Shown here: positions 37,233-58,147 of the stretch, one piece after another | Layout of the letters: each line of letters starts with the position of its first letter | Numbering within the stretch: the first letter of the stretch is position 1 | From: Deltaproteobacteria bacterium | Lineage (GTDB): Bacteria > Myxococcota_A > Polyangia > Polyangiales > JADZFZ01 | NCBI GenBank assembly: GCA_020854145.1 | Contig: JADZFZ010001081.1 | Location: 1 to 62,104 of the forward strand | Length of the DNA stretch: 62,104 nucleotides | Direction: 5' to 3' | Notes under the pieces: generated by a model | The model's database searches: none | What the model was told of the DNA's origin: nothing | The model's input: only the letters and a program-made list of their open reading frames with translations | Position numbers and translations under genes: made by a program

Positions 37233-39301
37233 CGACGCTGCTGTCGGAGTCCTTTCTCGAATCGGTCGGCCGGCTGTCCGCGGGCGCGAAAGCTCGCGTC
37301 TTGGACTTCATCGCCGCGTTCCAGAAGAACCCTGCATCTCCGGCCGTGAGTCTGGAGCGCGTGACGGGGGCACGTTCGTCTCAGGTGTGGGCCGGTCGGA
37401 TCTCGAACGAGCTGCGCGCCATCCTCCACAAGGACGGCGACACGTGGGTCGTCCTGCACGCCGACCATCACGACCCGGCTTACCGTTGGGCGGGACGCCA
37501 CGAGGTCGGCCGGCACGCGGTGACCGGGGCGCTCCAGGTGGTGGAGGTCGTCGAGCGCGTCGAGGAGCCCGTCGTCGCACGTTCGCGCGCGGCACCCGTG
37601 CCCGCCGGCCTGTTCGGTGGGCGAACGGACGATTACCTCGTGAGCCTGGGCGTTCCCGAGACGTGGCTCCCCGTCTTGCGATCGGTGACGAACGACGACC
37701 AGCTCCTCGACGTCTGCGTGAAGCTGCCGTCCGACGTGGCGGAACGCCTGCTCTCGGTCGCGGGCGGCGAGCTCGTCACTCCCCCTGCGCCCATCCCGCT
37801 CGATGCGCCGCTGACGGCCAGCCCCGACCTGCAGCGCCGGTTCTACGTGGTCGATGACCGCTCGGACCTCGAGGCGGTGCTCGATGCACCGATGGCGCGA
37901 TGGATTGCCTTTCTCCATCCGAGCCAGCGCCAGCTCGTGGAGAAGGACTTCCACGGTCCGGCGAAGATCACGGGCTCTGCCGGAACCGGCAAGACGACCG
38001 TCGCCATGCACCGTGCACGGCGTCTCGCGCGCGCCGGCCGACGTGTCTTCCTGACCACCTATGGCCGCACGCTCGCCGAGAACCTCCTTCGCCAGCTTCG
38101 GGTCTTCTGCACACCCGAGGATCTCGAGCGCATCACCGTTTCGACAGTGCACGCACGCGCGCTCGCAGTGGCGCGCACCCGCGACAGTCGAGTCGACATC
38201 GCAGGGACCAACGAAGTCCGCACCCTCCTCGACGCGATGCGCCTGCGGCATGCCCCTTCGCTCGATCCGGCGTTCGTACGCGCGGAGTGGGAGTCCGTCG
38301 CGCAACTGCACGGTCTCGAATCGTGGGCCGAATACCGCGGAGCTCGGCGGACCGGCCGCGGCAAGCCACTGAGCGTCGCGGATCGCAAGCAAGTCTGGCA
38401 GGTCTTCGAGGCGGTGCTCGAGACGTTGCGCGGCAGGCGTCACTACGACTGGTCCGGCCTCTGCCGTTTTGCCTGCGCGGAGCTGTCTTCGGGTCGAGCT
38501 GCGAGCCCGTTCGACGCCGTGCTCGTGGACGAAGTGCAGGACCTCAAGCCGCCGGAGCTGCGATTCCTGCGAGCGCTCGTCGGGACTGCGGGCGAGCTCG
38601 TCCTCTTCGGCGACGCGGGTCAGCGCATCTATCCCGGCGGGTTCAGCTTGGGTGCGCTCGGCATCGACGTGCGCGGCCGCTCGACGATCCTCCGATTGAA
38701 CTATCGGACCACGGAGCAGATACGGCGTGCCGCCGACCGCGTGCTGGGCACCGAATCGGACGACCTCGATGAAGGTCGGGAGTCGCGGCGCGGCACGCGG
38801 AGTCTCTTGCGCGGGCCGGAGCCCCAACTCCGCGGCTATGAGCTCGGCGAGTCCGAGACCGATGCCGCCGTCCGACGAATCCGACAGTGGCTCTCCTCCG
38901 GTTTGCAGCCCTCCGGCATCGCGGTATTCGCGCGCACCAACCGGCGGGCCGAGCAGATGGTCGGCGCATTCACGGCAGCGGATGTGCCCGCCGTGCTGCT
39001 CGCGGACGGAGACGAGCGCGCGACCGACGCCGTTCACGTCGGGACCATGCACCGCGCCAAGGGCCTCGAGTTCCGCGCGGTGCTCGTCGCGGATTGCTCT
39101 GCCGGCGTCGTTCCGCTCGCGACGATGCTGGATGCCCAGGTCGATCCTCAGGACCGCGAGACTGCCGAAGAGCGCGAGAAGCAATTGCTGTATGTCGCAA
39201 TGACTCGCGCGCGCGACGAGCTGGCCATCACGTGGACGGGGCAGCCCAGTCCGTTCCTCGCGCCGCTGCTCGGCGGCTCGCACGTCGGAGAATCCCCATG
39301 A
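37229..39301 (+). CDS. UvrD-like SF1 helicase with N-terminal RelE-like domain
   Basis: GTGA overlap; GSAGTGKT, VDEVQD, FGDAGQRIY, LNYRTT, TMHRAKGLEF, LLYVAMTRAR; N-terminus WAGRISNELRAIL...HADHHDPAY. Confidence 0.88.
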   Translation: MTTLLSESFLESVGRLSAGAKARVLDFIAAFQKNPASPAVSLERVTGARSSQVWAGRISNELRAILHKDGDTWVVLHADHHDPAYRWAGRHEVGRHAVTGALQVVEVVERVEEPVVARSRAAPVPAGLFGGRTDDYLVSLGVPETWLPVLRSVTNDDQLLDVCVKLPSDVAERLLSVAGGELVTPPAPIPLDAPLTASPDLQRRFYVVDDRSDLEAVLDAPMARWIAFLHPSQRQLVEKDFHGPAKITGSAGTGKTTVAMHRARRLARAGRRVFLTTYGRTLAENLLRQLRVFCTPEDLERITVSTVHARALAVARTRDSRVDIAGTNEVRTLLDAMRLRHAPSLDPAFVRAEWESVAQLHGLESWAEYRGARRTGRGKPLSVADRKQVWQVFEAVLETLRGRRHYDWSGLCRFACAELSSGRAASPFDAVLVDEVQDLKPPELRFLRALVGTAGELVLFGDAGQRIYPGGFSLGALGIDVRGRSTILRLNYRTTEQIRRAADRVLGTESDDLDEGRESRRGTRSLLRGPEPQLRGYELGESETDAAVRRIRQWLSSGLQPSGIAVFARTNRRAEQMVGAFTAADVPAVLLADGDERATDAVHVGTMHRAKGLEFRAVLVADCSAGVVPLATMLDAQVDPQDRETAEEREKQLLYVAMTRARDELAITWTGQPSPFLAPLLGGSHVGESP

Positions 39302-42153: not shown

Positions 42154-45100
42154 GTCGCGTGTCCGACAGGGGTGCTCTCGAGGGCGTGAAGACCGAAGGC
42201 GGGCTCCTTCCTCCGGACCTGCTGCAGCGAATTGCCGCGGCCGACGCGAAGGTCGGGGGCCTGTCGGTGGACGACTACCACCTGGCCAAGAACGAGACGC
42301 TCGCCGAAGCGATCACCCGCTCGTGGAATCGTCTCCTCGCTGCCTGGGTGTCGTTCCGCGATGCGCGCGCCAGGCTGCCGGAGGGCGACAAGGCGATCGG
42401 GCCTACCCGCGACAAGTGGCTGTTGCCGCTCTTCCAGGAGCTCGGCTACGGGCGTCTCGCGAAAGCAGGACCCGAAAAATTCCGTGTCGGCGATCAGAGC
42501 TACGCAATCTCGCACTGTTGCCAGCATCCTTCGCCGATTCACCTTCTCGGCGCGGGCGTTCCGCTCCACACGAAGACGCCGGGCGTCGCCGGCGCAGCGA
42601 CCGCTTCGCCGCACGGCCTGCTGCAAGACTTCCTGAATCGGTCCGACGGGCACCTGTGGGGCTTCGTCTCGAACGGTCTGCTGCTACGCGTTCTGCGAGA
42701 CCACCGGAGCCTGACACGCTCGGCGTACGTGGAGTTCGATCTCGAATCGATCTTCGAGGGCGAGCTGTTCCACGCATTCCGATTGCTTTGGCTCGTGTGC
42801 CACCAGAGTCGCGTCGAGGCCGAGAAGCCCGAGGACTGCTGGCTCGAGAAGTGGCACGAGCTCGTCCGCGAGGAAGGAATCAACGCGCTCGACGATCTGC
42901 ATCGCGCGGTTCGCGAGGCGATCACGGTCTTCGGTCGGGGCTTCCTGCGGCACCCCACGAACGTCGCGCTCCGGGATGCGCTGACTTCGGGCGCGCTGGA
43001 CAAGCAGGACTATTACCGGGAGCTGCTCCGGTTGGTCTATCGGCTCATCTTCCTCTTCGTCACGGAGGACCGAGGCGTGTTGCTCGATCCCGGCGCGTCG
43101 GAGGATGCCCGGAGTCGCTACCTACGTTTCTACTCGACCAAGCGCCTCCGGGACCTCGCGCGCAAACGCCGCGGGAGCGCACATTCCGATTCGTGGCACG
43201 CGCTCCGCGTCGTGATGCGCGGCCTGGACGACGGTCTTCCGGCGCTGGGTCTCCCGGCGCTCGGGAGCTTCCTCTGGAGCCCGACCTGCATTGCGCACCT
43301 GGAGCCCGACGAGATCAGCAACGAAGATCTCCTCGCTGCAATCCGGGAGCTCTCCACGACCGTCGACAAGCGCAAGCAGCGTTTCCCGGTGAGCTGGCGG
43401 AACATCGGCTCCGAGGAGCTCGGGAGCGTCTACGAGCGGTTGTTGGAGCAACACCCCGAGGTGAACAAGACCGCCAGCACGTTCGAGCTCCGCACGGCGG
43501 CCGGCCACGAGCGCAAGACCACAGGCAGCTATTACACGCCGGCGTCGCTCGTCGAATGTCTCCTCGACACGGCACTCGAGCCCGTGGTCGACGACGCGCT
43601 GAAAGGCAAGTCCGGCAAAGCCGCCGAGGACGCGGTTCTCGCATTGACCGTGTGCGACCCCGCGTGCGGCTCGGGGCACTTCCTATTGGCCGCCGGTCGT
43701 CGATTGGCTCGCCGACTCGCCCGCGTCCGTTCGGGCGACGAGGAGCCGAGCCCCGAGGCGCAGCGTCACGCGTTGCGCGACGTCGTGGGGCGGTGTTTGT
43801 ACGGGGTGGACCTCAACGAGATGGCGGCCGAGCTCTGCAAGGTCAGCCTGTGGCTCGAGGCCATCGAGCCAGGGCGACCGCTGAGCTTCCTGGACGGGCA
43901 CATCCAGGTGGGCAATTCGCTGCTCGGCACGACCCCCGAGCTCATGGCGAAGGGCATCCCCGACGACGCGTGGACGGCCATCGAAGGCGACGACAAGGAA
44001 GTCGCGAAGTCGCTGAAGCGGCGCAACAAGCTGGAAGCGAAGGGGCAGCGGACGCTGGGAGGACTGTTCGACAAAGACCCGGCGGAGGAGGCGAATCAGA
44101 TTCTCGCCAAGACACAGAGCATCGAGGCTGTGAACGACGAAGACCGTGGCGGGCTGCGCCGGAAAGAGTCGGCCTGGGAAGCGCTGAGGAACTCGCCAGA
44201 GTACCGACACGCGACATTGGTGGCGGATGCATGGTGCGCCGCGTTCGTGTGGCCGAAGCAGCGCGGCGCGATGTCGGACGCAGCGCCGACGAACGGAACC
44301 TGGAGGACGCTGCGCGATCAGCCGGACCGGGCGTTGGCGAAGACGGTGGAGATCGTCGGGAAACTCGCGCGAGAGTACGCGTTCTTTCACTGGCGGATCC
44401 GGTTCCCCCAGGTCTTCGGGCGGGGAGGGTTCGATGCGGTGGCAGGGAACCCGCCGTGGGAGCGCATCAAACTGCAAGAAAAGGAGTACTTCGCTGGGCA
44501 TCACCAAATCGACGGCGCGGCCAATGCCGCCGCTCGGAAGGCGCTCATCTCCGGGCTCCAGCTCACCGACGAGGCACTCTGGGTCCGGTGGATATCTGCT
44601 CGACGGCTGGCCGACGGAGAAATGGCGCTTGTTCGATTGTCTCAACTCTACCGACTGTGCGCCGGAGGCGACATCAATGCCTATGCTCTCTTTGTGGAAC
44701 TCGCCCGGTCGCTACTTCGGTCGAGCGGGTACGTAGGCATGATAGTCCCTCCTGGCCTGCTGACGGACGACTCGCGGAAGGCGTTCGCCCGTGATGTCAT
44801 CGAGGGGCGCCGGCTCGCGTGCTTCTACGAATTCACCAATCGCGGATACCTCTTCAGCACTACCGAAAGCACAACCACTTTCGCCTTGGTAACCCTAACG
44901 GGCCACTCCAGAACTGCGAGGATCCGCTGTGCGGCGCATCTTTGGTCGGTTGCCGATCTCCGCAATACCGAGCGCACATACGAGCTGTCGTCCGAGGACG
45001 TAATCCGGCTTAATCCCAACACGCGGACCATGCCGGTTTTCGAGTCCGCCCGGAGCGCCGACATCACTGCCCGAATGTACGCGGCAACGCGAGTCCTGAT

Positions 45101-46454
45101 TTGCGAGGGCCAGCCGGACGGTGACCCGTGGCAACTGCAGCTCACAACCATGTTCCACATGGCGGCCGACTCAGCGAATTTTCGAACAGAATCAGAGCTC
45201 AAATCGGACGGCTATGTGCCGACTGCAAACGTCTACCGGCGGGGCGCGGACACGTACCGGCCGCTATACGAATCGAAACTTGCCTATGCGTACAACCATC
45301 GTGCCGGCTCCTTTGCTGGCGTCCCGCAGGACGAGATCCTTGGCCCGCGAGCACGAACGATCTCTGCGAGCGAGGTGGCGTTAGCCGATCCGGCCTGGCA
45401 GATAACCCCCAGATACTGGCTGCTTGAGGACCACATCGACACCGAGCTCGCTACTCGGGGATGGCAGGCAGGCTTCCGCGACGTTGTGAATGCGGTCGCG
45501 GATGCCAGGTGTGTTTCCGCGGCGATCCTTCCAGTGGCCCCCGTCGGACACACCATCACATTGCTCCGGACTGGGGGTGGCGCACGAACAACCGCTCTAT
45601 TGCTGGGCGTCCTAAATAGCTTCGCGTGCGACTACGCCGCGAGGCAGAAGATCTCCGGGTCGCATTTGAGCGCGTACATCGTCCGACAGCTACCGGCTCC
45701 TCCGCCTCAAGAGTTCGCGCGATCGTGCGTATGGGACGCCGGAGTGAGTCTCGGCGACTGGATAATACCGCGAGTCGTCGAACTGTCGTACACGGCGTGG
45801 GACATCGAGCAATTTGCCCGCGACTGTGGCTTCGCTTCTTCGCCCTTCCGATATGACGATGAACGGCGCCTCGTCATGAGGTCGGAGCTTGACTCTGCGC
45901 TTGCCCATGCGTTCAGGCTCAGCCGCAGTGACTGTGAGTACCTTCTTGAGTCGTTTCCGGTGGTTCGGCGAAGCGATGAGCGCCGCTACGGCGAGTACCG
46001 CACGAAGCGCCTCATCCTCGAGTGCTACGACGCCATGGCCGAAGCAGCCTCGAAGGGCACTACCTACCAGACACGCCTCGACCCGCCGCCGGCCAACCCC
46101 GGCGTGGCGCACGGACCGACGCCGTGGCGGCAGGTGGTCCGGTCGGATCGGGGAGCGCAGTCGGTCTCGGCGTTCGAGGTGCGCTACTGCGGCGGCGATG
46201 TCGTCGAGGTGCGCGGTCAGGACGCGAGCGAACCCGAGCTGCGCACGGCGACGGCGCACTTCGGGGAGCCGGAGTACGAGACCATCGAGGGCGGGGACGC
46301 TGACGGTAGTCGCGGCGACCGACGGCGGCTCAAGCTGCGCGGGTACTTCGAGTGGTTGACTCGGCTGGACAGTCTGCCGGCTCCGTTTCGAGCGCGCCCA
46401 CTCCCAGCCCAGGAGCCACACGCGGCCTCGGCTGGCTCGGAGGACTCCCAATGA
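42150..46454 (+). CDS. large N6-adenine DNA methyltransferase (type IIG/Eco57I- or DrmMI-like) with TRD
   Basis: GTGA overlap; ELGSVYERLL, RKTTGSYYTP, DPACGSGHFL (motif I), GVDLN, GNPPW (motif IV). Confidence 0.92.
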   Translation: MSRVSDRGALEGVKTEGGLLPPDLLQRIAAADAKVGGLSVDDYHLAKNETLAEAITRSWNRLLAAWVSFRDARARLPEGDKAIGPTRDKWLLPLFQELGYGRLAKAGPEKFRVGDQSYAISHCCQHPSPIHLLGAGVPLHTKTPGVAGAATASPHGLLQDFLNRSDGHLWGFVSNGLLLRVLRDHRSLTRSAYVEFDLESIFEGELFHAFRLLWLVCHQSRVEAEKPEDCWLEKWHELVREEGINALDDLHRAVREAITVFGRGFLRHPTNVALRDALTSGALDKQDYYRELLRLVYRLIFLFVTEDRGVLLDPGASEDARSRYLRFYSTKRLRDLARKRRGSAHSDSWHALRVVMRGLDDGLPALGLPALGSFLWSPTCIAHLEPDEISNEDLLAAIRELSTTVDKRKQRFPVSWRNIGSEELGSVYERLLEQHPEVNKTASTFELRTAAGHERKTTGSYYTPASLVECLLDTALEPVVDDALKGKSGKAAEDAVLALTVCDPACGSGHFLLAAGRRLARRLARVRSGDEEPSPEAQRHALRDVVGRCLYGVDLNEMAAELCKVSLWLEAIEPGRPLSFLDGHIQVGNSLLGTTPELMAKGIPDDAWTAIEGDDKEVAKSLKRRNKLEAKGQRTLGGLFDKDPAEEANQILAKTQSIEAVNDEDRGGLRRKESAWEALRNSPEYRHATLVADAWCAAFVWPKQRGAMSDAAPTNGTWRTLRDQPDRALAKTVEIVGKLAREYAFFHWRIRFPQVFGRGGFDAVAGNPPWERIKLQEKEYFAGHHQIDGAANAAARKALISGLQLTDEALWVRWISARRLADGEMALVRLSQLYRLCAGGDINAYALFVELARSLLRSSGYVGMIVPPGLLTDDSRKAFARDVIEGRRLACFYEFTNRGYLFSTTESTTTFALVTLTGHSRTARIRCAAHLWSVADLRNTERTYELSSEDVIRLNPNTRTMPVFESARSADITARMYAATRVLICEGQPDGDPWQLQLTTMFHMAADSANFRTESELKSDGYVPTANVYRRGADTYRPLYESKLAYAYNHRAGSFAGVPQDEILGPRARTISASEVALADPAWQITPRYWLLEDHIDTELATRGWQAGFRDVVNAVADARCVSAAILPVAPVGHTITLLRTGGGARTTALLLGVLNSFACDYAARQKISGSHLSAYIVRQLPAPPPQEFARSCVWDAGVSLGDWIIPRVVELSYTAWDIEQFARDCGFASSPFRYDDERRLVMRSELDSALAHAFRLSRSDCEYLLESFPVVRRSDERRYGEYRTKRLILECYDAMAEAASKGTTYQTRLDPPPANPGVAHGPTPWRQVVRSDRGAQSVSAFEVRYCGGDVVEVRGQDASEPELRTATAHFGEPEYETIEGGDADGSRGDRRRLKLRGYFEWLTRLDSLPAPFRARPLPAQEPHAASAGSEDSQ

Positions 46455-49305: not shown

Positions 49306-50949
49306 ATGACGCTCACGGGCGGTTGGCTCCTTCCTCCCACGCCGATCCGAGGCCTCGACCACCTCGGCGTCCAGGCGCCTTGCATCGCGCTGTATGCGCA
49401 GCTCCTGCCCGGGATCACCAACGTCACGGACCGCGCCCGCTACTACAGCTTCTATCCCTGGTTCCTCTGGTCCTTCGACCAACGCGCCACCGATCGCTCG
49501 GAAGAGTCCTTCGTCCGCGAGCTCCGCCGCGCCGAATGCTTGCTCACGCTCATCGCGAATCGACACTGCCAGGTCAGCGGCGAACCGCAGGTGCTCCACG
49601 ACAGCGCGATGACCGGCAATCAGAAGCTGGGCCCTGCCGTCCGCGCGCTGGAGGCGGGAGCTGCGCTCGACCTCGAATCGTTTGCGGCATTCGAGGGGGA
49701 CCGCCGGTACTTCAAGTCCAAGTGGGGCGGGTTCGGCCAGTACTACTGGGGATCCCTCCGCGACCTGCGAATCGTCGACTCCACCCCGAGCGGAGTGCCG
49801 GGGTACGACCAGACGCGTGGGGTCGCGCTCGCGCGGGCCTTCGAGGGAGGCGTCTCCTCCGATGCATTCTTCGAGGTGCTCGCCCGCGGCAGCGTCTCGC
49901 TCGATGAGCTCGACCGACTCTCACCGTTCTGCCCGTGCGGGTTGCGCGCGAACGCACCCGAGCTCGAGGCGTTGCTCGACGTGTTCCTCGCGCGGACCGC
50001 CGAGTATCTCGAAGATGGCGGTGACGCTCGCCGCGAGTCCCTCGCGCTCCTGCTCTCCATTGCCGACGCCTCCGGCGATGGCGTCGACGAGTGGCGGCTT
50101 CGCGTGGCTGCGTACTCGGGATGTTTGCTCTCGGGCCAGACTTGGGAGCTGCCCGCTCGTCTCCAGGCAATCTGCTCGCGGTGGGCAATCTACGAGCGCA
50201 ACGAGCTCCTCTCCATCGCCATACAAGGACTCTTCTGGGCCGTCCTGCAGGCGATCGACGTCCATCGGCGGGGCCGCCTCCGCGGCGTGGCCGAGGCGGG
50301 CGACGTGCTCGTGGCGCTCGCGGCGGAAACCGATTGGGTAGGCCGGCTCGACGGGACGGTCGCAGCCGCCGTCGATCAGGTCGCGTCGTCTCTGCCCGCG
50401 CGCGGAAGCTGGGATGACGAGCGGCACGAGGAGCGCCTCGCCACGAAGGTCCAGGAGATTGCCGGGCGATTCGATTGCCAGGCTGCCGACTTGCCTGGGG
50501 TTGTCGATCGCGCCCTCTCGATTCTCGCCGCTCTGATGATTCGGCAGGCTGCCGAGGCCGACGGCTACCCATATGCCGGCTTCGACTTCGCGGCGGATCA
50601 CTTCGGCGGCACCGAGATCGATCTCGCCTCTTTCCGGGTTCAATCGCCGCGCTGGCGAGGGCTCACGGTTCGCCATTGGCTGAGCTGGCTCGCCACCACG
50701 TGGGGAGTCGAACGTCATCTCCGCGTTGCCCTCCGGAAGCTCCGCGCGCAGAGCCAGGACACGTTTCGCATTCGCCCGCTGGACGACCGCCTCCAGGTGG
50801 TCGAGGTGGCCCCGGCGGGATTCACGGGGCCTCGGGTACGGCAGGCCCTCCAGATTCTCCTCGATCTCGGGCTCCTCACGCGTACCGAAACGGGCGCCAT
50901 GGTGTCGAGCCAACGCGGACGTGCGGAGCTGGAGAAGATCCTTGGGTGA
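49306..50949 (+). CDS. DUF6361-like hypothetical defence protein with C-terminal winged helix
   Basis: GLDHLG...LLPGITNVTDRARYYSFYPW; ends PRVRQALQILLDLGLL...G. Confidence 0.65.
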   Translation: MTLTGGWLLPPTPIRGLDHLGVQAPCIALYAQLLPGITNVTDRARYYSFYPWFLWSFDQRATDRSEESFVRELRRAECLLTLIANRHCQVSGEPQVLHDSAMTGNQKLGPAVRALEAGAALDLESFAAFEGDRRYFKSKWGGFGQYYWGSLRDLRIVDSTPSGVPGYDQTRGVALARAFEGGVSSDAFFEVLARGSVSLDELDRLSPFCPCGLRANAPELEALLDVFLARTAEYLEDGGDARRESLALLLSIADASGDGVDEWRLRVAAYSGCLLSGQTWELPARLQAICSRWAIYERNELLSIAIQGLFWAVLQAIDVHRRGRLRGVAEAGDVLVALAAETDWVGRLDGTVAAAVDQVASSLPARGSWDDERHEERLATKVQEIAGRFDCQAADLPGVVDRALSILAALMIRQAAEADGYPYAGFDFAADHFGGTEIDLASFRVQSPRWRGLTVRHWLSWLATTWGVERHLRVALRKLRAQSQDTFRIRPLDDRLQVVEVAPAGFTGPRVRQALQILLDLGLLTRTETGAMVSSQRGRAELEKILG

Positions 50950-53518
50950 TCTGGCGCTCCTCGACCGGCTGTCCGATGCCGGCTTCTCGGCGAGCATCGC
51001 CACCACGTACAACGTCTACCTCCCGTTCTACGAGCAACTCGTCCTCCGACGCCTGCGCGCCGCGGGTTGCCAACACAACGTGCTCCTCGTGGACGCGAGC
51101 CAGCTTGCGGCCTCCATCGCGGACGAGCACCAGCGTCCCCGGCTCGCTGGCATCGATTACACCCTCGTGCCGGTGAGCGCCGGAGGCGCCTTCCACCCGA
51201 AGGTGCTGCTCCGCCTCGGCAAGCGGAAAGGCTCGCTCTACGTCGGCAGCCACAATCTCACCCTCGCGGGGACGGGCCACAATCACGAGCTCACGACCGC
51301 GGTTCGTTACGACGGAACGGGCTCACGCGAGGCCGTCGTCCATTTCCGCGAGGTGATCGCCGAGCTTCGCGGCTACCTCGAAACCTCGCTTCCTGGTGTG
51401 CGCGAAGCCTTCGAGGCCGCCGTGCGCACGGCACCGTGGTTGTCGGGTCCCGCGCCGGTCTCGCCCGACACCGTCGTCGTCGGGAGCCACCGCGATGTGG
51501 CGACGCTCTGGACTCGCGTACGCAAGCTGGTTCGCGGCGCCGCGCGTCGCGTCCTGGTCGTGGGGCCTTTCTTCGACGAAGAGCTCTCTCTGCTTCGCGC
51601 GATTGCTCGGGATCTCCTGCCGACCGAGGGGATCTTCGTCGCCATCGACCCGGAGACGGTGTCCATCGATCCGACCGTCGCGGCCGCGGCGCCGTTTCGG
51701 TTCGTCGATGCGTCGGGGCAGCTCCCGCGGGAGAGGCGTCGGGACGGCGAGCGTGGCTATCTCCACGCCAAGGCGCTCTGGTTCCAGACCGATGAAGGGG
51801 AGTTGCTCGTCCTCGGAAGCGCGAATCCCACCGCGGCTGCGTTCCTCCTCGATCTCGCGAATCGTAACGCGGAGATCGTCGTCGCGCGCTGGTCCGAGGC
51901 GACGACTACCGAGCTCCTCGGCGAGGCGGGGCTCGGGCCGCTGCTCGAGGCGCCTCCCGTCACCGAGACCCAATGGGCCGCGCTGCACGCACGCAACGAC
52001 GCCGACGGTGAGTCGGGTGACGCCCCCGCAACCGACCGAGCAGGCGTTCTTCTCGCGGAGACGGTCGAGGATGGGTTTCTCGTCGGCGGCGTGATCGCCG
52101 ATCGCGTGGTCGCGCTCGACGACGACGGCACCGAGCTCGAGACGCTGCAACCCGATCCTCCGGCGGATTCCAAGACCCATGTTCCCGCGTCGGCCGAGAC
52201 GCGCGACCGCGCGAGGTGGCTGCGCTCGACGACCGACCAGGGGTCCGTGGTCCTCGTTCACCACACGACGCGCGTCGCCGAGCTCTACGTGTCCAGTGCA
52301 CGTCGCGAGCTCCGGGCTGCGCTCGGCCGGCTCGACGAGGATCCGTCGCAACTCGAGACGCTGCTTCAATTGACCGAGAAGGCGATCTTCGATTCGGGCG
52401 ACATCACGCGTCCAGCGGTACGCGGTGACCACGGGAGCCCGGACGGGGTCACGGCGACGCCCGTCTCGGAGGCCAGCTCACTCGCAATCGACGCCCAAGG
52501 ACGCCCGTCTGCTCGGCGCAAACGGAGGCAGATCGCCAGCGGAGACCTCGCCGTGCTCCTCGACGCGCTCATTCATCGATTGGGACAGGGCCTATTGTCG
52601 GTTGCGACGGGTGACGAGGGCAGAAGCGAGGAGGAGTTGGTCGGTTCGGACGACGACGAGCCGCCCATCGCCACGCCGCCGCTCGATCTCGACCTGTCCG
52701 CACTCGCGGAGAAGTGTCGGCGGAAGGTGAAGCTGCTCGTCAAACGGATGCTGGCGCAGCTCGACAAGGCCAAGGCTGCCCCCGACGACGCCGAGCCCTC
52801 GCGTCGTGCCGTCGTGCAGCTCGCCGCAGTCCTTGCCATCATTCGCGCGCTCCGCGCCTACGAGCGCCGATCCGAATGGCGGCGCGCGGGATTGCGCCTG
52901 CTCGACGACAAGGCCCTCGTCCAGCTCTTCGATTCAGCCAACGCGTCTCTCGTCCCTCCGGAGGATGGGATTCTCGCGCGTGCCCTCGTTGCCAACTACG
53001 ACGAGCCGTTCGAGGAGCATCACCTCGTGATTGGCCTCCTCGTGTGGTTGGCGTGGGAGACCGGCATCGACCTCGAGCACCCGCTCTCCGCCACCCTGTC
53101 CGTCGAGCTCGACGCCGACCCGTGGCCGCCGCTGCAGTGGCTGCTCTTCCTGGCTCCATGGATCGACGACCACGTTACGAGGACGATCGAGGACGCCGTG
53201 CGCGCCACGCCGCGCCGCGGACATGATCCCGAACGCTGGCTTCGAGCCCACCTTCCGTGGCTCCAATTCGTTGCCAGCATCGAGCGCTCGCCCGACCCCT
53301 CGGCGACCCTCGGCGGACGCTTCGCGCGCGGGGACCTCGTGTGCCTGGCCGCGAGTCAGCGCCCGCGCGTCCGCCTCGTTCTCCGCGTCGACGACGGAAC
53401 CCAGGGCGCGAAGCTCCAGCTGATGCGCCCCGACGGGACTCTGATGTGGATGCTCGCGTCGCGCGTCGCGCGAGTGCCCACCGAACCCAACGTGCATGCC
53501 GCAGTCGGAGCCCGGTGA
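50942..53518 (+). CDS. phospholipase D-family nuclease with two HxK motifs
   Basis: FHPKVLL..LYVGSHNLT and LHAKAL..LVLGSANPT; TTG start overlaps the upstream stop by 8 nt. Confidence 0.82.
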   Translation: MGDLALLDRLSDAGFSASIATTYNVYLPFYEQLVLRRLRAAGCQHNVLLVDASQLAASIADEHQRPRLAGIDYTLVPVSAGGAFHPKVLLRLGKRKGSLYVGSHNLTLAGTGHNHELTTAVRYDGTGSREAVVHFREVIAELRGYLETSLPGVREAFEAAVRTAPWLSGPAPVSPDTVVVGSHRDVATLWTRVRKLVRGAARRVLVVGPFFDEELSLLRAIARDLLPTEGIFVAIDPETVSIDPTVAAAAPFRFVDASGQLPRERRRDGERGYLHAKALWFQTDEGELLVLGSANPTAAAFLLDLANRNAEIVVARWSEATTTELLGEAGLGPLLEAPPVTETQWAALHARNDADGESGDAPATDRAGVLLAETVEDGFLVGGVIADRVVALDDDGTELETLQPDPPADSKTHVPASAETRDRARWLRSTTDQGSVVLVHHTTRVAELYVSSARRELRAALGRLDEDPSQLETLLQLTEKAIFDSGDITRPAVRGDHGSPDGVTATPVSEASSLAIDAQGRPSARRKRRQIASGDLAVLLDALIHRLGQGLLSVATGDEGRSEEELVGSDDDEPPIATPPLDLDLSALAEKCRRKVKLLVKRMLAQLDKAKAAPDDAEPSRRAVVQLAAVLAIIRALRAYERRSEWRRAGLRLLDDKALVQLFDSANASLVPPEDGILARALVANYDEPFEEHHLVIGLLVWLAWETGIDLEHPLSATLSVELDADPWPPLQWLLFLAPWIDDHVTRTIEDAVRATPRRGHDPERWLRAHLPWLQFVASIERSPDPSATLGGRFARGDLVCLAASQRPRVRLVLRVDDGTQGAKLQLMRPDGTLMWMLASRVARVPTEPNVHAAVGAR

Positions 53519-55722
53519 TGACGGTCGACGGTGACGCGAGCGCGTTCCTCGCGCGGCTCTGGGCCCACCTTCTCGGGGGTGCGCCGGATCTCGCGGTCGT
53601 CGTGCGGCCCATGGACGGCGGCGAGCGCAGGGCGTCGGGCGAATGGCGAGTGCCCGCTTTCGCGCCGGAGCAGATCAGCATCGGCCCCGACGAGCTGCCG
53701 TCGTTCGTCGCAGGGCTGGGAACCCGGAGGCGGCAGCGACTGCTCGTCGTGGCACTCGGATACCCCGGGGCTGATAGGTCGGATGTAACCGATCCGGTCG
53801 GAGAGGCCCTGGCCGATCTGCCCGCGGACATTCGGTGCGCGATCTGGCTACCCGCAACTGCCCTGGAGAGTCGGAGAACCGCCGCGATGCGCAGCGCGTT
53901 GAGGGGCAGAGCACGGTGGATTGTCTGGCTCCGCGACCTCGTGAATCCGCTCTTCGACATCCACGCGCTCTTCGACTCCGCACTCGTGGTGACCGGCGGA
54001 GCCGACGACGGGTGTATTCGCCTGGTCGACCTCCGTCGTGCCCGGACCCACGACGACGCTATCGATGCAGTCGCGCGCTGCGGTGTTCGGGGCGGTGGCG
54101 AGGTCGAGAACACGATCGTCCTGCGCAAGGACACCGTCGCGCTGGACGACGCTCCCTGGACGTTCCTCCGCTTCTCACGGGTCCTCTCCGATTCGCTCGC
54201 GGACACACGGGCGCTCGGTCCCACCGTCACGCTCGGCGACGTCGCCGATATCGCCCGTGCTGTACATCGATTCGAGCGCGCTCGAGGAGGAGCCGCGGGT
54301 CGTCCGGGATTGCACCGGGCATACGACGCGCGGTCGCTCCGAGAAGATGGTTCGCTGGGGGATGACATCGGCAGCCTTTCACCCGAGAAGATGCGGCCCG
54401 CCGCAGCCCTGCGCGCTTGTGACGTCCTGGTTCGTACGATCCGCCGCACCGGCGAGCCGCTTCGCGCCGCTGTCGTCACCGATGCGAACCTCCCCGCCGT
54501 GGCTGTCGGCAACCTCGTGCGGGTTCGATTTCGCGAGCCGCCGCGCTGGCTCGATCTGCTCACGTCCTACTTGGGATCGGAAAGAGTCACCAAGCGTCTC
54601 GACGCGGCGAGCTCCGGCTCCCACGTGCACGTTGCCGTCCTCCGGGAACTGCCGATCCCGGTCCCGAATCCGGAGGTGCTCGATGCCCTCGATCGCCTCC
54701 AACGAGACGAGCGACACCACCTTCGTTGGGCGGCGGAGCTTCAAGAAGCTCGACGGGGCCTGTTCCAATCGCGCTCGTACCGTGACGACGTCCCTCGCCT
54801 GCTTGCAGTCGCCCGCGAATCGGCCGACCGCGTCGAAGCCGCGCACTTCGCAGGAACCCTCGAGGCTCTGATTCGGGATCGGTTTCCCCATCCCTTCGCG
54901 CTGAGGTGGGATGTGCTCGCGACGCTCCCGCACGGGGAGAAGCGCTTCGGCAAGACGCTGGAATGCGCAGAGCACTGGTTCACGTACCTCGCCATCCTGG
55001 CGACTACCGTGCGGGTCCAGCTCGGCAAGTCACCCCTTGTTCAACCCAGCTGGGTCGACAGAGGCAATCGACTGACCTTCGACTTCGGCAAAGTCGTAGA
55101 CATCGTGCGGAGCACGGCGGCCCTCTGTTCCAAGCACCCCGACCCGCTGGAGCTCGCAGTCCCCGAGCTCGCGCGCCTGCACGAGGCGTTCTGCGACACC
55201 GACGGCAAGTGGACCCACGCCGTCCGCGACTTGATGGACGTGCGAAACAAGCAGGCGCACCTCACCCGCCTGCCGCCGGGCGAACTGGCCGACCTCTGTC
55301 GGCGCATGTCGGCCGACCTCGCAGTCGTGTTCGACGCGTGCCGCTTCGTGACCGCCACGCCGCTGGTTCACGTGCTCGACTACCGCCTGGACCCGATGAC
55401 GGGCGGGAGGCTGGCGACCTACGAACGTCTCGTCGGGATCAGTGCCGCCGCACGTCGAGAGACTGCGTTGGTGCAGCGCGAGCTTCCTCGTGGCGGCGTC
55501 GGGATCCTCGACAGGAAGGGTCAGTTCCACTCGCTCGCGCCGTGGCTCCTGCGCGAAGCGTGTGAGTCCTGCAAGCGACCGGAGACGTTCGTCTTCAGCA
55601 AGATGGACGGTGAGGACGTTTCCTGGGTCGCCTTCGAGACGGGCCATCCGCGCTTGCGCTCGGACATGGCTGCTCGTGTTCGCGCCGCGATAGGCTCGAA
55701 CGACTCGGATGGCAGCCGATGA
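53518..55722 (+). CDS. degenerate N6-MTase, TRD (HsdS-like) and HEPN-like fusion
   Basis: TGATG overlap; AIWLPATAL...MRSAL..WIVWL..LF resembles MTase C-half without FxGxG/NPPY; LGDVADI, DVLV, L..YLGS, LRELPIPVP (TRD); RNKQAH (55243-55260). Confidence 0.65.
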   Translation: MTVDGDASAFLARLWAHLLGGAPDLAVVVRPMDGGERRASGEWRVPAFAPEQISIGPDELPSFVAGLGTRRRQRLLVVALGYPGADRSDVTDPVGEALADLPADIRCAIWLPATALESRRTAAMRSALRGRARWIVWLRDLVNPLFDIHALFDSALVVTGGADDGCIRLVDLRRARTHDDAIDAVARCGVRGGGEVENTIVLRKDTVALDDAPWTFLRFSRVLSDSLADTRALGPTVTLGDVADIARAVHRFERARGGAAGRPGLHRAYDARSLREDGSLGDDIGSLSPEKMRPAAALRACDVLVRTIRRTGEPLRAAVVTDANLPAVAVGNLVRVRFREPPRWLDLLTSYLGSERVTKRLDAASSGSHVHVAVLRELPIPVPNPEVLDALDRLQRDERHHLRWAAELQEARRGLFQSRSYRDDVPRLLAVARESADRVEAAHFAGTLEALIRDRFPHPFALRWDVLATLPHGEKRFGKTLECAEHWFTYLAILATTVRVQLGKSPLVQPSWVDRGNRLTFDFGKVVDIVRSTAALCSKHPDPLELAVPELARLHEAFCDTDGKWTHAVRDLMDVRNKQAHLTRLPPGELADLCRRMSADLAVVFDACRFVTATPLVHVLDYRLDPMTGGRLATYERLVGISAAARRETALVQRELPRGGVGILDRKGQFHSLAPWLLREACESCKRPETFVFSKMDGEDVSWVAFETGHPRLRSDMAARVRAAIGSNDSDGSR

Positions 55723-55789: not shown

Positions 55790-58147
55790 GTGACTCAGGA
55801 CAAACCATCCAGTCGTCCGGCTGAGCCTGAAGCTATACCCGGGACGCGCCCCGGGATGCGCACTCTCCCCGAGCGCCGCAATCCCAGCGAGCTGACCGAC
55901 CCGTTGGACACGACGATTCGCCTGGGAAGTGGTCGGCCTTCAACCGTTCTGCCGGTCGGCACGCGTGGTCATGTCGGTGGGGCCGCTTGCTTGGTGCCAG
56001 ACGATCCCTCCGGGCAACGCTTCCTGCTGCTCGACGGGACACCGCGTAGCGTGGGCCGCTCGCACGACAACGATCTCGTGAGCAACGACCCCTCCATGTC
56101 TCGGCGCCATTTTCAGGTCTATCTCGTCCGAGACACCCTGCGCGACGGCTCACCGGACAACCGCTGGCTCGTCGAAGACCTCGGCGCGACCAACGGAACC
56201 TTCCTCGGAAGCGAGAAGCTCAGCCGCGAGGCTCCTCGCCCGCTGCCAGACGGCAGCGTCATCCGGGCCGGCGACCGACGGTTTAGGTTCTACCGAGCGG
56301 ACGGCGAGCATCGGCCCGCCGTTCGTCGATTCCTCGAGGACCCCGACTCGCAGGTCTTCAACGCGGAAACCGTCAAGCTAGAGATCGAGCGCCTCGCGCG
56401 CCGGGGTGGCGGATCGCATTTGGCCTTGGTCGGCATCGACGACTACTCCTGGTTTGCCGAACGACTCGACGAGGTTCGGCGGCAGCGATTGCTTCAACAC
56501 GTCGGGAGTCAGTTGCTGGCCGCGCTCCACGCGCACGAAGGCGGCGCCTGTCTGCTGGGCGTGGTGGAGCCGGGCACCTTCTCGTTCTTCCCCGCCGGCG
56601 CGCTGGCAGTAATCCACTCCGCGCTACGGGAATCGTTGGATCAAACCGAGTCTGTCCTGCGGGACATGGCAATCGGCGGCTCGATCAGGGTGTCAGCATC
56701 GCTGGTCCCTGTACCTCCCGACGCGTCTGCCACCGATGTGATCCAGCGCGGACTCGACAAGGTGAGACAAGCGACTCACGCCGGCGGCAACCGCGTCACC
56801 ACCACGGATATTCGACCGCTGTGGGACAAGCGAAGACGGGACCTGTGGTTGGCGAGGCTTCCGACGATGAGCTCGGTCGCCCTGGCGAGCGCCGGCTCGA
56901 CGGGAGGCACGCTCGGCAGTGACGTGGTTCTCCGATGGGTGGCGACTGCAATCGACGGCCTCCCGAGTGGCACGGAGGTCGCGATATGTCTCAGCGCGTT
57001 GCCGGCGTCGTGGCTGATCGCCGCCTCGTGCAGTACCGAAGAGCTCCGGCGAGTTCTCGCCAAGACCCCCGACGTCCGGATCCGCATGGCGGATTCGGGG
57101 CCGACGGCGAGCCGTTGGGTCGAACACGTCGAGTCGGGCTTCGTCGGCGCAGCCGCGCCGGGCCGTCGGCCACTGTGGCTGTTCTCGCAGCTCGAGGCCG
57201 ACTACCGATCATCGTCCGAGGGTGAACGCTTGTTGAAGGCGATTCAGGGATTCGAAGGCATGCTCCGGTTCGTGGGCAACCTGACGATCGCATGTCTCGC
57301 GCATGCGCGAATTCAGTCCACGGAAGCATCCCGCGCGACTTTGCGGTCGGCGACGCTCCGCAGTCTGGCGCTCTCGAAGGCAGAGAGGTTCCCCGCCTCC
57401 GGGGAGTGGCTGCAGATTGCTGTGGAAATCGGCGAGGTCCTCGACGCGAGCGCCGTTCCGGCCGCATTGCGGGCACTACTGACGGATTCGAGCTGGATTG
57501 CAAGGTGTGGGAAAGCCGCCGCGCTTAGGGGGGAGCATGTCCACGGGCCCACTGGGCCCCGGGAGGCGACCGCCGAGCTGTGGGCGTGTGTGAAGCGGTG
57601 CATGAGCCTCTTCGTCGAGGACGAGCTTCGCATCGTCAAGGTCGACTCCGTGGAGGCGCGGCGGGGCCGACGCGATCGGTGGCGTGTTCATTATCGTCGG
57701 CTCGCATCGGCCGGGCCGTTGGGGGATGTGGAGGAGAAGGAGATCGAGGGCACTGCCGTGTCCCGCGGTCTATGGGCAATCGAAGGCAACACGTGGATTC
57801 CCCTGTCGCCGCTGCTGGAGCTGGAGCGGTGCCCCGACTGCAATCGATTCGACCTCTTCGCTGCGAAGGCATTCCCCCGAAAGGAGCACGCCTTCGGCAT
57901 GGTGGGCCTGGTGGACCCACATCCGTGGAGAAGTCGAGTGTCCGAGGACGAGCCGGAGCTGTGGCTGCTGCTGGGGGCCCTCGCCGAGCCATCGACTGCC
58001 CCACCGGCGCCCCGAGATTGCGAGATTACGGGCCAGTTCAATCTCGCGCGTATCGTGGCGCTCGAGGAGTCCCACGGAGCCAACGCCGATCCGCGCGACA
58101 CATTGCCCCTGGACCAGCGACGAGATCGGGGGCGGGACGATGACTGA
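55790..58147 (+). CDS. FHA, degenerate GGDEF and HEPN-like fusion protein
   Basis: GGAGG RBS; GRSHDNDL..DPSMSRRH, EDLGATNGTF (FHA); DPDSQVFN..LALVGIDDY with no GG(D/E)EF; LRGEHVHG (57527-57544), LSPLL..CPDC. Confidence 0.75.
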   Translation: MTQDKPSSRPAEPEAIPGTRPGMRTLPERRNPSELTDPLDTTIRLGSGRPSTVLPVGTRGHVGGAACLVPDDPSGQRFLLLDGTPRSVGRSHDNDLVSNDPSMSRRHFQVYLVRDTLRDGSPDNRWLVEDLGATNGTFLGSEKLSREAPRPLPDGSVIRAGDRRFRFYRADGEHRPAVRRFLEDPDSQVFNAETVKLEIERLARRGGGSHLALVGIDDYSWFAERLDEVRRQRLLQHVGSQLLAALHAHEGGACLLGVVEPGTFSFFPAGALAVIHSALRESLDQTESVLRDMAIGGSIRVSASLVPVPPDASATDVIQRGLDKVRQATHAGGNRVTTTDIRPLWDKRRRDLWLARLPTMSSVALASAGSTGGTLGSDVVLRWVATAIDGLPSGTEVAICLSALPASWLIAASCSTEELRRVLAKTPDVRIRMADSGPTASRWVEHVESGFVGAAAPGRRPLWLFSQLEADYRSSSEGERLLKAIQGFEGMLRFVGNLTIACLAHARIQSTEASRATLRSATLRSLALSKAERFPASGEWLQIAVEIGEVLDASAVPAALRALLTDSSWIARCGKAAALRGEHVHGPTGPREATAELWACVKRCMSLFVEDELRIVKVDSVEARRGRRDRWRVHYRRLASAGPLGDVEEKEIEGTAVSRGLWAIEGNTWIPLSPLLELERCPDCNRFDLFAAKAFPRKEHAFGMVGLVDPHPWRSRVSEDEPELWLLLGALAEPSTAPPAPRDCEITGQFNLARIVALEESHGANADPRDTLPLDQRRDRGRDDD

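What the first reader, a model, noticed from the sequence alone, without database searches (positions are those of the whole stretch)
53518..55722. Catalytically dead R-M subunit mimic fused to a HEPN-like domain: possible integrated decoy
Seen: MTase C-half scaffold with NPP(Y/F) replaced by ALGY and no FxGxG, then one HsdS-type TRD with coiled coil, then the RNKQAH domain. Known: PrrC (HEPN) is triggered by a phage inhibitor of EcoprrI, and PARIS senses Ocr. Inference: bait for anti-restriction proteins or DNA mimics that releases an RNase.
Basis: partly seen in the sequence, partly recalled or inferred. Interest (0 to 1): 0.75.

Follow-up and report, generated by a model that had tools for sequence, protein, structure and literature searches.

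The report
Dead methylase fused to HEPN-like nuclease
This gene encodes a DNA-methyltransferase look-alike that has lost its catalytic and cofactor motifs but keeps a DNA-recognition domain, fused to a probable RNase-type killing domain; it belongs to a widespread, uncatalogued protein family that normally travels with restriction-like (DISARM-type) phage-defence operons.

Summary
Window 53518-55722 (+) is an intact 734-aa gene, its ATG overlapping the stop of the upstream PLD gene. A confident AlphaFold model (pLDDT 91.6) and a family profile both match gamma-class N6-adenine MTases plus TRD (M.TaqI, CamA, type I M). There is no Gly-rich SAM loop, and V78-A-L-G-Y-P stands where (N/D)PP(Y/F/W) should be. 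A two-helix HsdS-like spacer follows, then an all-alpha domain with invariant R576/H581 (RNKQAH) placed as in HEPN, then a CxxC/HGH beta domain.

It is not a one-off: about 570 clusters at 50% identity, none in Pfam, NCBIfam or PADLOC. None of 114 full-length members has motif IV; 112 keep the Rx4H motif.

Context changes the reading. In 7 of 8 close-clade loci the gene follows a GHKL-ATPase/STAS gene at the end of a DISARM-like operon, and it diverges in parallel with that operon's MTase. Here the GHKL partner is missing and the gene is coupled to a ZacA/ZacB-like PLD pair that occurs elsewhere without it. Relatives with an intact MTase, or with no MTase domain, also exist.

Best reading: a TRD-guided HEPN-like effector or sensor accessory to R-M-like systems. 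The decoy idea is neither shown nor excluded; the TRD's lack of hypervariability mildly favours a constant ligand.

The parts
53518..55722 (+). Gene C: 734-aa pseudo-MTase / TRD / coiled-coil / HEPN-like / Zn-beta protein. Its ATG overlaps the stop of gene B (ATGA).
53518..54207 (+). Residues 1-230: degenerate class-I (gamma N6-adenine) MTase fold. There is no Gly-rich SAM loop after beta1 (residues 25-29), and it is the least conserved part of the family.
53749..53766 (+). V78-A-L-G-Y-P: the position of catalytic motif IV, (N/D)PP(Y/F/W), degenerate here and in the whole family.
54208..54672 (+). Residues 231-385: single HsdS/M.TaqI-type target recognition domain (invariant G234, D302, L352, P381).
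54673..54852 (+). Residues 386-445: two long helices, equivalent to the conserved-region spacer of HsdS or a half-HsdS dimerisation helix.
54853..55362 (+). Residues 446-615: all-alpha HEPN-like domain. H2 is 474-501 with E485, an insert follows, H3 is 564-579, and H4 is 587-607.
55243..55260 (+). [quoted passage not shown] R and H are invariant.
55363..55659 (+). Residues 616-714: beta-rich domain with C682-x-x-C685 and E707-x-x-H710 (putative Zn site). It is the most conserved part.
49306..50949 (+). Gene A, 547 aa, weak ZacA-like match. It is the conserved partner of gene B in other genomes.
50942..53518 (+). Gene B, about 858 aa, PLD (HKD) nuclease, ZacB-like. It overlaps gene A's end and gene C's start, and elsewhere it ends its operon without a gene-C homologue.
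31704..46454 (+). DISARM class-1-like operon: DEAD+MZB helicase, UvrD, SNF2 (DrmD/DpdE-like) and an Eco57I-type DrmMI MTase. Orthologous operons elsewhere end with a GHKL/STAS gene followed by a gene-C homologue.
55790..58147 (+). FHA protein whose residues about 490-726 carry a diverged copy of the same C-terminal module (RGEHVH, CxxC).

Best explanation
Gene C is an accessory effector/sensor of restriction-modification-like defence. It is built on the chassis 'MTase domain - one TRD - two-helix spacer - HEPN-like RNxxxH domain - Zn beta domain', and its MTase domain is a catalytically dead, SAM-blind remnant.

Shown:
- the fold, the missing motifs and the invariant Rx4H;
- the family's size;
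- its habitual position as the last gene of DISARM class-1-like operons, behind a GHKL-ATPase/STAS gene;
- its divergence in parallel with that operon's MTase;
- the existence of sister architectures with a live MTase or with no MTase domain.

Inferred:
- The pseudo-MTase and TRD clamp still binds a ligend of constant nature, either DNA in a largely sequence-independent way or a protein that fits the DNA cleft.
- The half-HsdS-like helices bring two chains together, so that two HEPN-like domains form an active nuclease (most likely a metal-independent RNase). This would give a second-line, abortive-infection-type response alongside the DISARM-like machine.
- The GHKL/STAS partner normally gates it.

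In this genome the GHKL partner is absent. A STAND NTPase and a ZacA/ZacB-like PLD pair lie between the MTase gene and gene C, and gene C has become translationally coupled to the PLD gene.
For: Fold and profile.

Dead motifs across the family.

HEPN-like features:
- Invariant R576/H581 with N at +1.
[quoted passage not shown] Conserved E485 lies in the preceding long helix, and there is an insert between H2 and H3. This matches the description of HEPN in PMC3710099.
- The same module is reused as a portable unit beside FHA, cNMP-binding, Ser/Thr kinase, FGE and TPR domains, and weakly at the N-terminus of the STAND NTPase.

Context:
- 7 of 8 distinct close-clade loci with enough upstream DNA have the GHKL/DUF4325 gene directly upstream. 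Four of them show the Eco57I-type MTase and SNF2 genes before it.
- The window's MTase is 40-44% identical to those MTases and gene C is 33-36% identical to their partners, with the same branching pattern.
- The operon proteins score as DrmMI and as DrmD/DpdE. The GHKL/STAS protein matches the N-terminus of a PADLOC DrmA model.
- Distant members sit next to hsdR/hsdM or hsdM/hsdS.

Sister architectures: a live MTase version (NPPF, DPTCGMGG, RNKIRH), an SPPF version, and a 516-aa TRD-spacer-module version.

Half-HsdS proteins dimerise through the helix (PMC11754733).
Against: - No biochemical data exist for any member.
- The HEPN assignment rests on motif, secondary-structure placement and conservation. 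The isolated C-terminal domain could not be fold-searched, and no profile hit to a solved or curated HEPN was obtained.
- The module's frequent fusion to kinases, FHA and cNMP-binding domains would also fit a signalling or sensor role rather than a nuclease.
- In this window the usual GHKL partner is missing from the whole assembly (91% complete), so the gene may work differently here or be a stranded remnant.
- Whether the pseudo-MTase/TRD binds DNA at all is untested.
Confidence: 0.55

Rival explanations
1. Integrated decoy. The dead MTase/TRD mimics the DNA-binding groove of the real R-M methylase. Phage anti-restriction proteins or DNA mimics (Ocr, ArdA and the like) bind it instead of, or as well as, the real enzyme. 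Binding releases or dimerises the HEPN-like RNase, as PrrC is released when Stp hits EcoprrI.
For: - The scaffold is conserved while catalysis is lost in every member examined.
- The TRD is not hypervariable, whereas the co-inherited DrmMI TRD is. This suggests a constant ligand rather than a diversifying DNA motif.
- The family is always found with R-M-like systems.
- The N-terminal pseudo-MTase is the fastest-evolving part, as expected for a surface in an arms race.
- There is a precedent for a phage protein docking in a half-HsdS DNA cleft.
- PMC3710099 proposes a PrrC-like logic for R-M-linked HEPN domains.
Against: - There is no direct evidence.
- The pseudo-MTase is not a close copy of the neighbouring DrmMI.
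- Sister proteins with an intact MTase, or with no MTase domain at all, carry the same effector module, so the chassis did not arise as a decoy.
- The conserved GHKL/STAS partner points to another mode of control.
Confidence: 0.15
2. Sequence- or methylation-state reader. The dead MTase pocket and the TRD recognise the same motif that DrmMI methylates. They fire the nuclease on unmethylated (or, conversely, on methylated) foreign DNA. This would be a type IIG-like enzyme that has handed its methylation to a separate MTase.
For: - Live-MTase relatives with the same chassis look like single-chain R-M enzymes.
- The distant clade keeps a hydrophobic-P-P-(W/F) remnant of the base-flipping motif.
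- The gene is co-inherited with an active MTase.
Against: - The TRD of gene-C homologues stays at about 50% identity. The TRD region of their partner MTases drops to 18-45% identity, against 70-90% in the rest of the protein, so the two specificities do not co-vary.
- There is no significant TRD similarity between partners.
- In gene C's own clade even the PP(W/F) remnant is gone.
Confidence: 0.15
3. Third subunit of the ZacA/ZacB-like PLD system. Gene C replaces the ZacC helicase of Azaca and targets the PLD nuclease to DNA through its TRD.
For: - Genes A, B and C overlap one another (TTGGGTGA and ATGA), which implies co-translation.
- Gene B matches ZacB at 2e-20, and gene A weakly matches ZacA.
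- Azaca needs all three proteins to cleave DNA (bioRxiv 10.1101/2025.07.10.664194).
Against: - In three other loci the A-B pair ends with a gap of 107-141 nt and an unrelated third gene (BrxE-like, DUF726, sigma54-type AAA).
- Gene C's closest homologues never sit next to a PLD gene.
- The arrangement is so far unique to this window.
Confidence: 0.1
4. Stranded remnant. After NB-ARC, A and B were inserted and the GHKL partner was lost, gene C is no longer functional in this genome.
For: - The GHKL/STAS gene is absent from the assembly.
- The arrangement is atypical.
Against: - The frame is open and full length, and it retains every family-invariant residue.
- The start codon is tightly coupled to gene B.
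- Stand-alone members without a GHKL gene exist.
Confidence: 0.05

Closest known systems
PrrC / RloC anticodon nucleases (HEPN RNases latent on type I R-M systems)
   Same: A HEPN-type Rx4-6H effector genetically tied to an R-M-like system. A regulatory or sensor N-terminal part is fused to a C-terminal nuclease. The expected role is a second-line response when restriction is challenged.
   Different: The N-terminal part here is a pseudo-methyltransferase plus TRD, not an ABC-type ATPase. No sequence similarity was detected. The association is mainly with DISARM-like operons and a GHKL/STAS gene. PMC3710099 stated that R-M-linked HEPN domains fuse to nucleases, helicases and ATPases but not to methylases.
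Gamma-class N6-adenine MTases with a fused TRD (M.TaqI, CamA, M.BseCI; type IIG/IIL and BrxX/DrmMI enzymes)
   Same: The overall fold of residues 1 to about 445: Rossmann-type domain, TRD and helical spacer.
   Different: There is no motif I and no (N/D)PP(Y/F/W). One beta-alpha unit and the helix after beta1 are missing. The C-terminal region is a HEPN-like plus Zn-beta module, not the wHTH/coiled coil described for BrxX.
DISARM class 1 (DrmD, DrmMI, DrmA, DrmB, DrmC)
   Same: Gene C's close homologues are the terminal gene of operons with DrmD-like SNF2, DrmMI-like MTase and a helicase-DUF1998 (MZB) protein. They sit where the PLD nuclease DrmC would be.
   Different: Gene C is not a described DISARM component. 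The large helicase scores better as DruE than as DrmA. A GHKL/STAS gene accompanies it. In this window the gene is detached from the operon.
Half-HsdS proteins such as Esub1 (8VSQ/8VSR)
   Same: A single TRD followed by a helix used for dimerisation. The cleft of Esub1 is bound by a phage protein. Foldseek TM on target is 0.63.
   Different: Esub1 is a 23-kDa stand-alone protein with neither a pseudo-MTase nor an effector domain.
Azaca (ZacABC)
   Same: The two upstream genes resemble ZacA and ZacB, and gene C occupies the third position.
   Different: ZacC is an SF2 helicase/NTPase, and gene C has no NTPase. The A-B pair occurs elsewhere without gene C.

Membership tests
N6-adenine DNA methyltransferase (gamma class) | Class-I Rossmann-type MTase fold followed by a TRD | tested here: met
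   Foldseek matches M.TaqI at E 3e-10 with TM on target 0.54-0.59, and also CamA, BseCI and a type I M subunit. The profile hits M.TaqI at E 6e-8.
N6-adenine DNA methyltransferase (gamma class) | Motif IV (N/D/S)PP(Y/F/W) catalytic loop | tested here: not met
   Gene C has V-A-L-G-Y-P at that position. The motif is found in 0 of 114 full-length family members.
N6-adenine DNA methyltransferase (gamma class) | Motif I (D/E)PxxGxG SAM-binding loop followed by a helix | tested here: not met
   Beta1 (residues 25-29) is followed by a low-confidence, gap-rich loop with no GxG and no helix. Actual SAM binding was not measured.
Type I HsdS-type target recognition domain | TRD fold followed by long conserved-region helices | tested here: met
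   Matches to the M.TaqI TRD and Esub1. PADLOC Specificity_I models hit many members, down to 6e-7. Helices run 385-417 and 421-445.
Type I HsdS-type target recognition domain | Hypervariability between homologues (specificity switching) | tested here: not met
   The TRD is about as conserved as the rest of the protein, unlike the TRD of the partner DrmMI.
HEPN superfamily | Conserved Rx4-6H with a polar residue (N/D/H) after R | tested here: met
   R576-N-K-Q-A-H581. R and H are invariant. 112 of 114 members have R[NDHST]xxxH.
HEPN superfamily | [quoted passage not shown] | tested here: met
   The AF2 secondary structure was compared with the description in PMC3710099. E485 lies in helix 474-501, the insert spans 502-563, helix 3 is 564-579, H581 is in the loop, and helix 4 is 587-607.
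HEPN superfamily | Four-helix up-down bundle confirmed by structure or profile comparison with known HEPN domains | tested here: inconclusive
   There were no Pfam, NCBIfam or PDB profile hits. Whole-model Foldseek output was filled by MTase hits, and the domain could not be searched on its own.
HEPN superfamily | Metal-independent RNase activity | not testable with these tools
   This needs biochemistry.
DISARM class 1 | Operon with DrmD (SNF2), DrmMI, DrmA and DrmB (DUF1998) | tested here: met
   Window 31704-46454 scores as DrmMI at 2e-69 and DrmD at 1e-83, and has a DEAD+MZB helicase (DrmA 1e-16, though DruE scores 9e-97). This applies to the neighbouring operon, not to gene C itself.
DISARM class 1 | Gene C is a described DISARM component | tested here: not met
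   No PADLOC Drm model matches gene C or any of 62 family members.
Azaca (ZacABC) | Third gene is a ZacC helicase/NTPase | tested here: not met
   Gene C has no NTPase domain and does not hit ZacC.

The most novel reading that the evidence does not exclude
The pseudo-methyltransferase/TRD is an integrated decoy. It offers phage anti-restriction proteins (DNA mimics such as Ocr or ArdA, or other MTase inhibitors) a dummy R-M DNA-binding groove. Their binding dimerises or unlocks the HEPN-like RNase, turning counter-defence into a suicide trigger. This would be a bacterial counterpart of plant NLR integrated decoys, attached to DISARM and type I systems.
Probability: 0.15. Interest if true: 0.85.

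Novelty: new variant of a known kind. Interest (0 to 1): 0.62.

Why it matters
R-M-linked HEPN effectors such as PrrC and RloC are the classic example of layered immunity, but few kinds are known. A 2013 survey concluded that HEPN domains in R-M contexts are never fused to methylases.

This family is large (about 570 clusters at 50% identity) and absent from Pfam, NCBIfam and PADLOC. It pairs a universally inactivated methylase/TRD scaffold with a universally conserved Rx4H site, and it sits at the effector end of DISARM-like operons. The restriction step of DISARM is still poorly understood.

If the protein is the nuclease, or a guard, of these systems, two things follow. It would give DISARM-type defence a testable effector. 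It would also give a clear case of an enzyme fold recycled as a sensor.

The series of live-MTase, dead-MTase and MTase-less versions on one chassis offers natural controls for experiments.

Tried and rejected
- Direct Pfam, NCBIfam and PADLOC scans of gene C gave nothing beyond a weak type I S hit.
- The word-indexed homologue search found only 2-3 relatives. The exhaustive HMMER search was needed to find the family.
- The first AF2 run, with a 2-sequence alignment, was useless (pLDDT 37).
- The genome contigs pattern scan gave only 3 loci, and the same-order and same-phylum genome searches found no full-length homologue.
- A profile of the C-terminal module against PDB sequences gave only noise. 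hhalign against an NCBI-annotated 'HEPN domain-containing protein' aligned the RNxxxH motifs but was not significant.
- The idea that gene C shares its TRD specificity with the adjacent DrmMI was rejected. There is no significant similarity and no co-variation.
- MADS was considered as the parent system and rejected on composition. The BrxX C-terminal region was considered as a homologue of the C-terminal module and rejected, because it is a wHTH plus coiled coil.
- Promoter and terminator scans around the operon were uninformative.
- Earlier notes of this scan held nothing on homologues.
Full report
**1. What is at the coordinates**

Window 53518-55722 (+) is an open frame of 734 codons. Its ATG (53518) shares its A with the TGA (53516-53518) of the upstream gene, and it stops at 55720-55722. 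The window has about 67% G+C throughout. It is a dense defence island, in this order:
- a VgrG/Rhs cassette
- an McrB-like AAA protein
- a dynamin operon
- a DISARM-like operon at 31.7-46.4 kb
- an NB-ARC STAND protein
- genes A and B
- the gene in question (gene C)
- an FHA protein
- an OLD/GajA-like ATPase
- a GHKL ATPase

**2.

Curated libraries say almost nothing about gene C. There is no Pfam or NCBIfam hit, and PADLOC gives only a weak type I S hit at E 0.003. An exhaustive HMMER search found 568 representative clusters, typically about 750 aa long.

A 62-member alignment (A2) gave two kinds of support for an MTase-like N-half:
- As a profile it hits M.TaqI at E 6e-8 in two collinear pieces: the part of the catalytic domain after NPPY, and the TRD. 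It also hits the half-HsdS protein Esub1, and weakly EcoKI M, BsaXI, BseCI and CamA.
- It supports an AlphaFold model with pLDDT 91.6 and pTM 0.84. Foldseek places residues 1 to about 440 on M.TaqI (TM on target 0.54-0.59), CamA, BseCI, a type I MTase, BpuSI and BrxX, and on viral N6-MTases.

The catalytic equipment is gone:
- After beta1 (residues 25-29) there is no GxG loop and no helix.
- At the beta4 loop gene C reads V78-A-L-G-Y-P.
- In the clade nearest gene C this position is (N/D)-hydrophobic-hydrophobic. In the distant clade it is hydrophobic-P-P-(W/F). No member has the full motif.
- A regular-expression count finds (N/D/S)PP(Y/F/W) in 0 of 114 full-length members.

Residues 231-385 are a single TRD, and helices 385-417 and 421-445 form the HsdS-like spacer.

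R576 and H581 (RNKQAH, nt 55243-55260) are among only nine invariant columns of A2. When the module from unrelated architectures is added, the only invariant columns are one Gly and this R and H.

**3. Is the C-terminal domain HEPN?**

PMC3710099 describes HEPN as follows:
- a polar residue after the R
- a conserved acidic residue in helix 2
- frequent inserts between helices 2 and 3

The model gives:
- helix 474-501 carrying near-invariant E485
- an insert at 502-563
- helix 564-579 ending in R576-N577
- H581 in the loop
- helix 587-607

This fits point by point. I could not fold-search the domain alone, and no profile hit to a known HEPN was obtained. The assignment is therefore 'HEPN-like, probable', not proven.

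A beta-rich domain follows (residues 616-714) with C682xxC685 and E707xxH710. It is the most conserved part of the protein.

**4. The module is portable**

Local HMM searches found the same C-terminal module in several other proteins of this assembly:
- the FHA protein next door (E 1e-6)
- the FGE-domain protein of the dynamin operon (E 1e-4)
- a protein on another contig (E 1e-30), which Pfam shows to carry a cNMP-binding domain

In other genomes of the phylum the module sits N-terminal to Ser/Thr kinases and TPR arrays. RNxxxH is kept in 10 of 11 such proteins. hhalign also aligns it weakly with the N-terminus of the neighbouring STAND NTPase (E 0.035).

This is how effector domains of conflict systems behave. 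A signalling role cannot be excluded, however.

**5. Context changes the picture**

Gene C's nearest relatives are 33-38% identical to it. They are the last gene of operons reading DEAD+MZB helicase, SNF2, Eco57I-type MTase, GHKL-ATPase/DUF4325 (STAS-like), family protein. The last two genes overlap.
- Seven of eight distinct close-clade loci with enough upstream sequence have the GHKL/STAS gene. The window is the exception.
- No homologue of that gene exists anywhere in this 91%-complete assembly.
- The window's own MTase (41469-46454) is 40-44% identical over about 1380 residues to those MTases. The pattern of divergence among the MTases mirrors that among the family proteins. Gene C was therefore inherited with the DISARM-like operon 7 kb upstream.
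- PADLOC calls the MTase DrmMI (2e-69) and the SNF2 protein DpdE/DrmD. The GHKL/STAS protein matches the N-terminal 360 positions of one DrmA model.

By contrast, genes A and B form a conserved pair on their own. Gene A is a weak ZacA match, and gene B is a PLD protein matching ZacB at 2e-20. Gene B has more than 200 homologues of about 850 aa. In three loci examined the pair is followed, after 107-141 nt, by unrelated genes. The A-B-C operon of this window is thus a local chimera. NB-ARC, A and B lie between the MTase and gene C, the GHKL gene is absent, and gene C has become translationally coupled to gene B.

**6. Wider family**

- Distant members lie beside hsdR/hsdM (L054).
- Some stand alone on Streptomyces plasmids.
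- A 516-aa version has only the TRD, spacer and module, and is annotated 'restriction endonuclease'.
- Two relatives keep a seemingly active MTase on the same chassis. One is a 963-aa Streptomyces plasmid protein with DPTCGMGG, NPPF and RNKIRH. The other is a metagenomic protein with DPAVGTGG and SPPF but KNDFKH, lying next to hsdM/hsdS.

The functional core is therefore TRD, spacer and RNxxxH module. The MTase domain is optional, and it is dead in the main family.

**7. Mechanism**

Two comparisons help discriminate between the readings:
- Conservation rises from the pseudo-MTase (mean pairwise identity 0.21) through the TRD (0.27) to the Zn-beta domain (0.33).
- In three loci with closely related operons, the partner MTase drops from 70-90% identity to 18-45% across its TRD. 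That is the signature of specificity switching. The family protein stays flat at about 50% across its own TRD.

Gene C's TRD therefore does not track the methylase's specificity. This argues against a reader of the same motif and for a ligand of constant nature.

Half-HsdS proteins dimerise through the helix, and a phage protein is known to dock in such a cleft (PMC11754733). HEPN nucleases generally need two domains to act; this last point is from my own knowledge.

My best reading, at about 0.55, is a TRD-guided, dimerisation-activated HEPN-like nuclease. It would act as an accessory effector or sensor of R-M-like systems, normally gated by the GHKL/STAS partner.

A role as the third subunit of the PLD pair (about 0.1) or a stranded remnant (about 0.05) is less likely.

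**8. Novelty**

No curated family, PADLOC model or paper in the searched library describes this architecture. PMC3710099 explicitly noted that R-M-associated HEPN domains fuse to nucleases, helicases and ATPases 'but not to the methylases'.

I class it as a new variant of a known kind (R-M-linked HEPN effectors). Interest is moderate to high for phage-defence specialists, mainly because it offers a candidate effector or guard for DISARM-like systems and a natural live/dead/absent MTase series.

Noticed in passing
window 49306-53518: Genes A (547 aa, weak ZacA match) and B (about 858 aa, PLD, ZacB 2e-20) form a conserved overlapping pair in other genomes, including Sorangium. There the third gene is variable and unrelated, and no helicase is present. 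This is a candidate two-gene Azaca-like system without ZacC.
   Followed up: partly
window 55790-58147: The FHA protein next door carries a diverged copy of gene C's C-terminal module (residues about 490-726; RGEHVH in place of RNxxxH, CxxC retained).
   Followed up: partly
window 29050-30948: The FGE-sulfatase-domain protein at the end of the dynamin operon also has the RNxxxH module (VRNDEKH) at residues about 60-266.
   Followed up: partly
window 46352-49036: The N-terminal about 50-220 residues of the NB-ARC STAND protein align weakly with the same alpha domain (hhalign E 0.035; RNKTRGH). This suggests the module also serves as a STAND effector.
   Followed up: partly
L075 (own genome, contig C1108) 3456-4940: A paralogue consists of a cNMP-binding domain followed by the RNxxxH/CxxC module (E 1e-30). 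It looks like a cyclic-nucleotide-gated effector.
   Followed up: partly
L065, L070, L072, L073, L074 (other genomes of the phylum): The RNxxxH module is fused N-terminally to Ser/Thr protein kinases, once together with FGE-sulfatase. This resembles the kinase-plus-HEPN (KEN) layout of Ire1/RNase L in the reverse order.
   Followed up: partly
L076 7582-10473 (Streptomyces sp. NBC_01462 plasmid): A stand-alone 963-aa 'N-6 DNA methylase' has intact motifs I and IV, a TRD and the RNxxxH/CxxC module. It is a possible single-chain R-M-like enzyme whose effector is HEPN-like.
   Followed up: partly
L061 7946-14260: A relative with an intact MTase (DPAVGTGG, SPPF) has KNDFKH instead of RNxxxH. It lies directly upstream of hsdM and hsdS.
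   Followed up: partly
L003 8790-10004 and homologues: The GHKL-ATPase/DUF4325 (STAS-like) protein that precedes gene C's homologues matches positions 35-393 of a 1750-position PADLOC DrmA model. In some DISARM systems this module is therefore fused to the helicase.
   Followed up: partly
window 31704-37232: The 1842-aa DEAD+Helicase_C+MZB protein of the DISARM-like operon scores far better against Druantia DruE models (9e-97) than against DrmA (1e-16). A UvrD-type helicase is inserted after it.
   Followed up: no
L003/L033/L039 MTase genes: The DrmMI-like MTases show a sharp identity trough across residues about 780-1240 (18-45% against 70-90% elsewhere). This is classic TRD specificity switching within a DISARM-like system.
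   Followed up: partly
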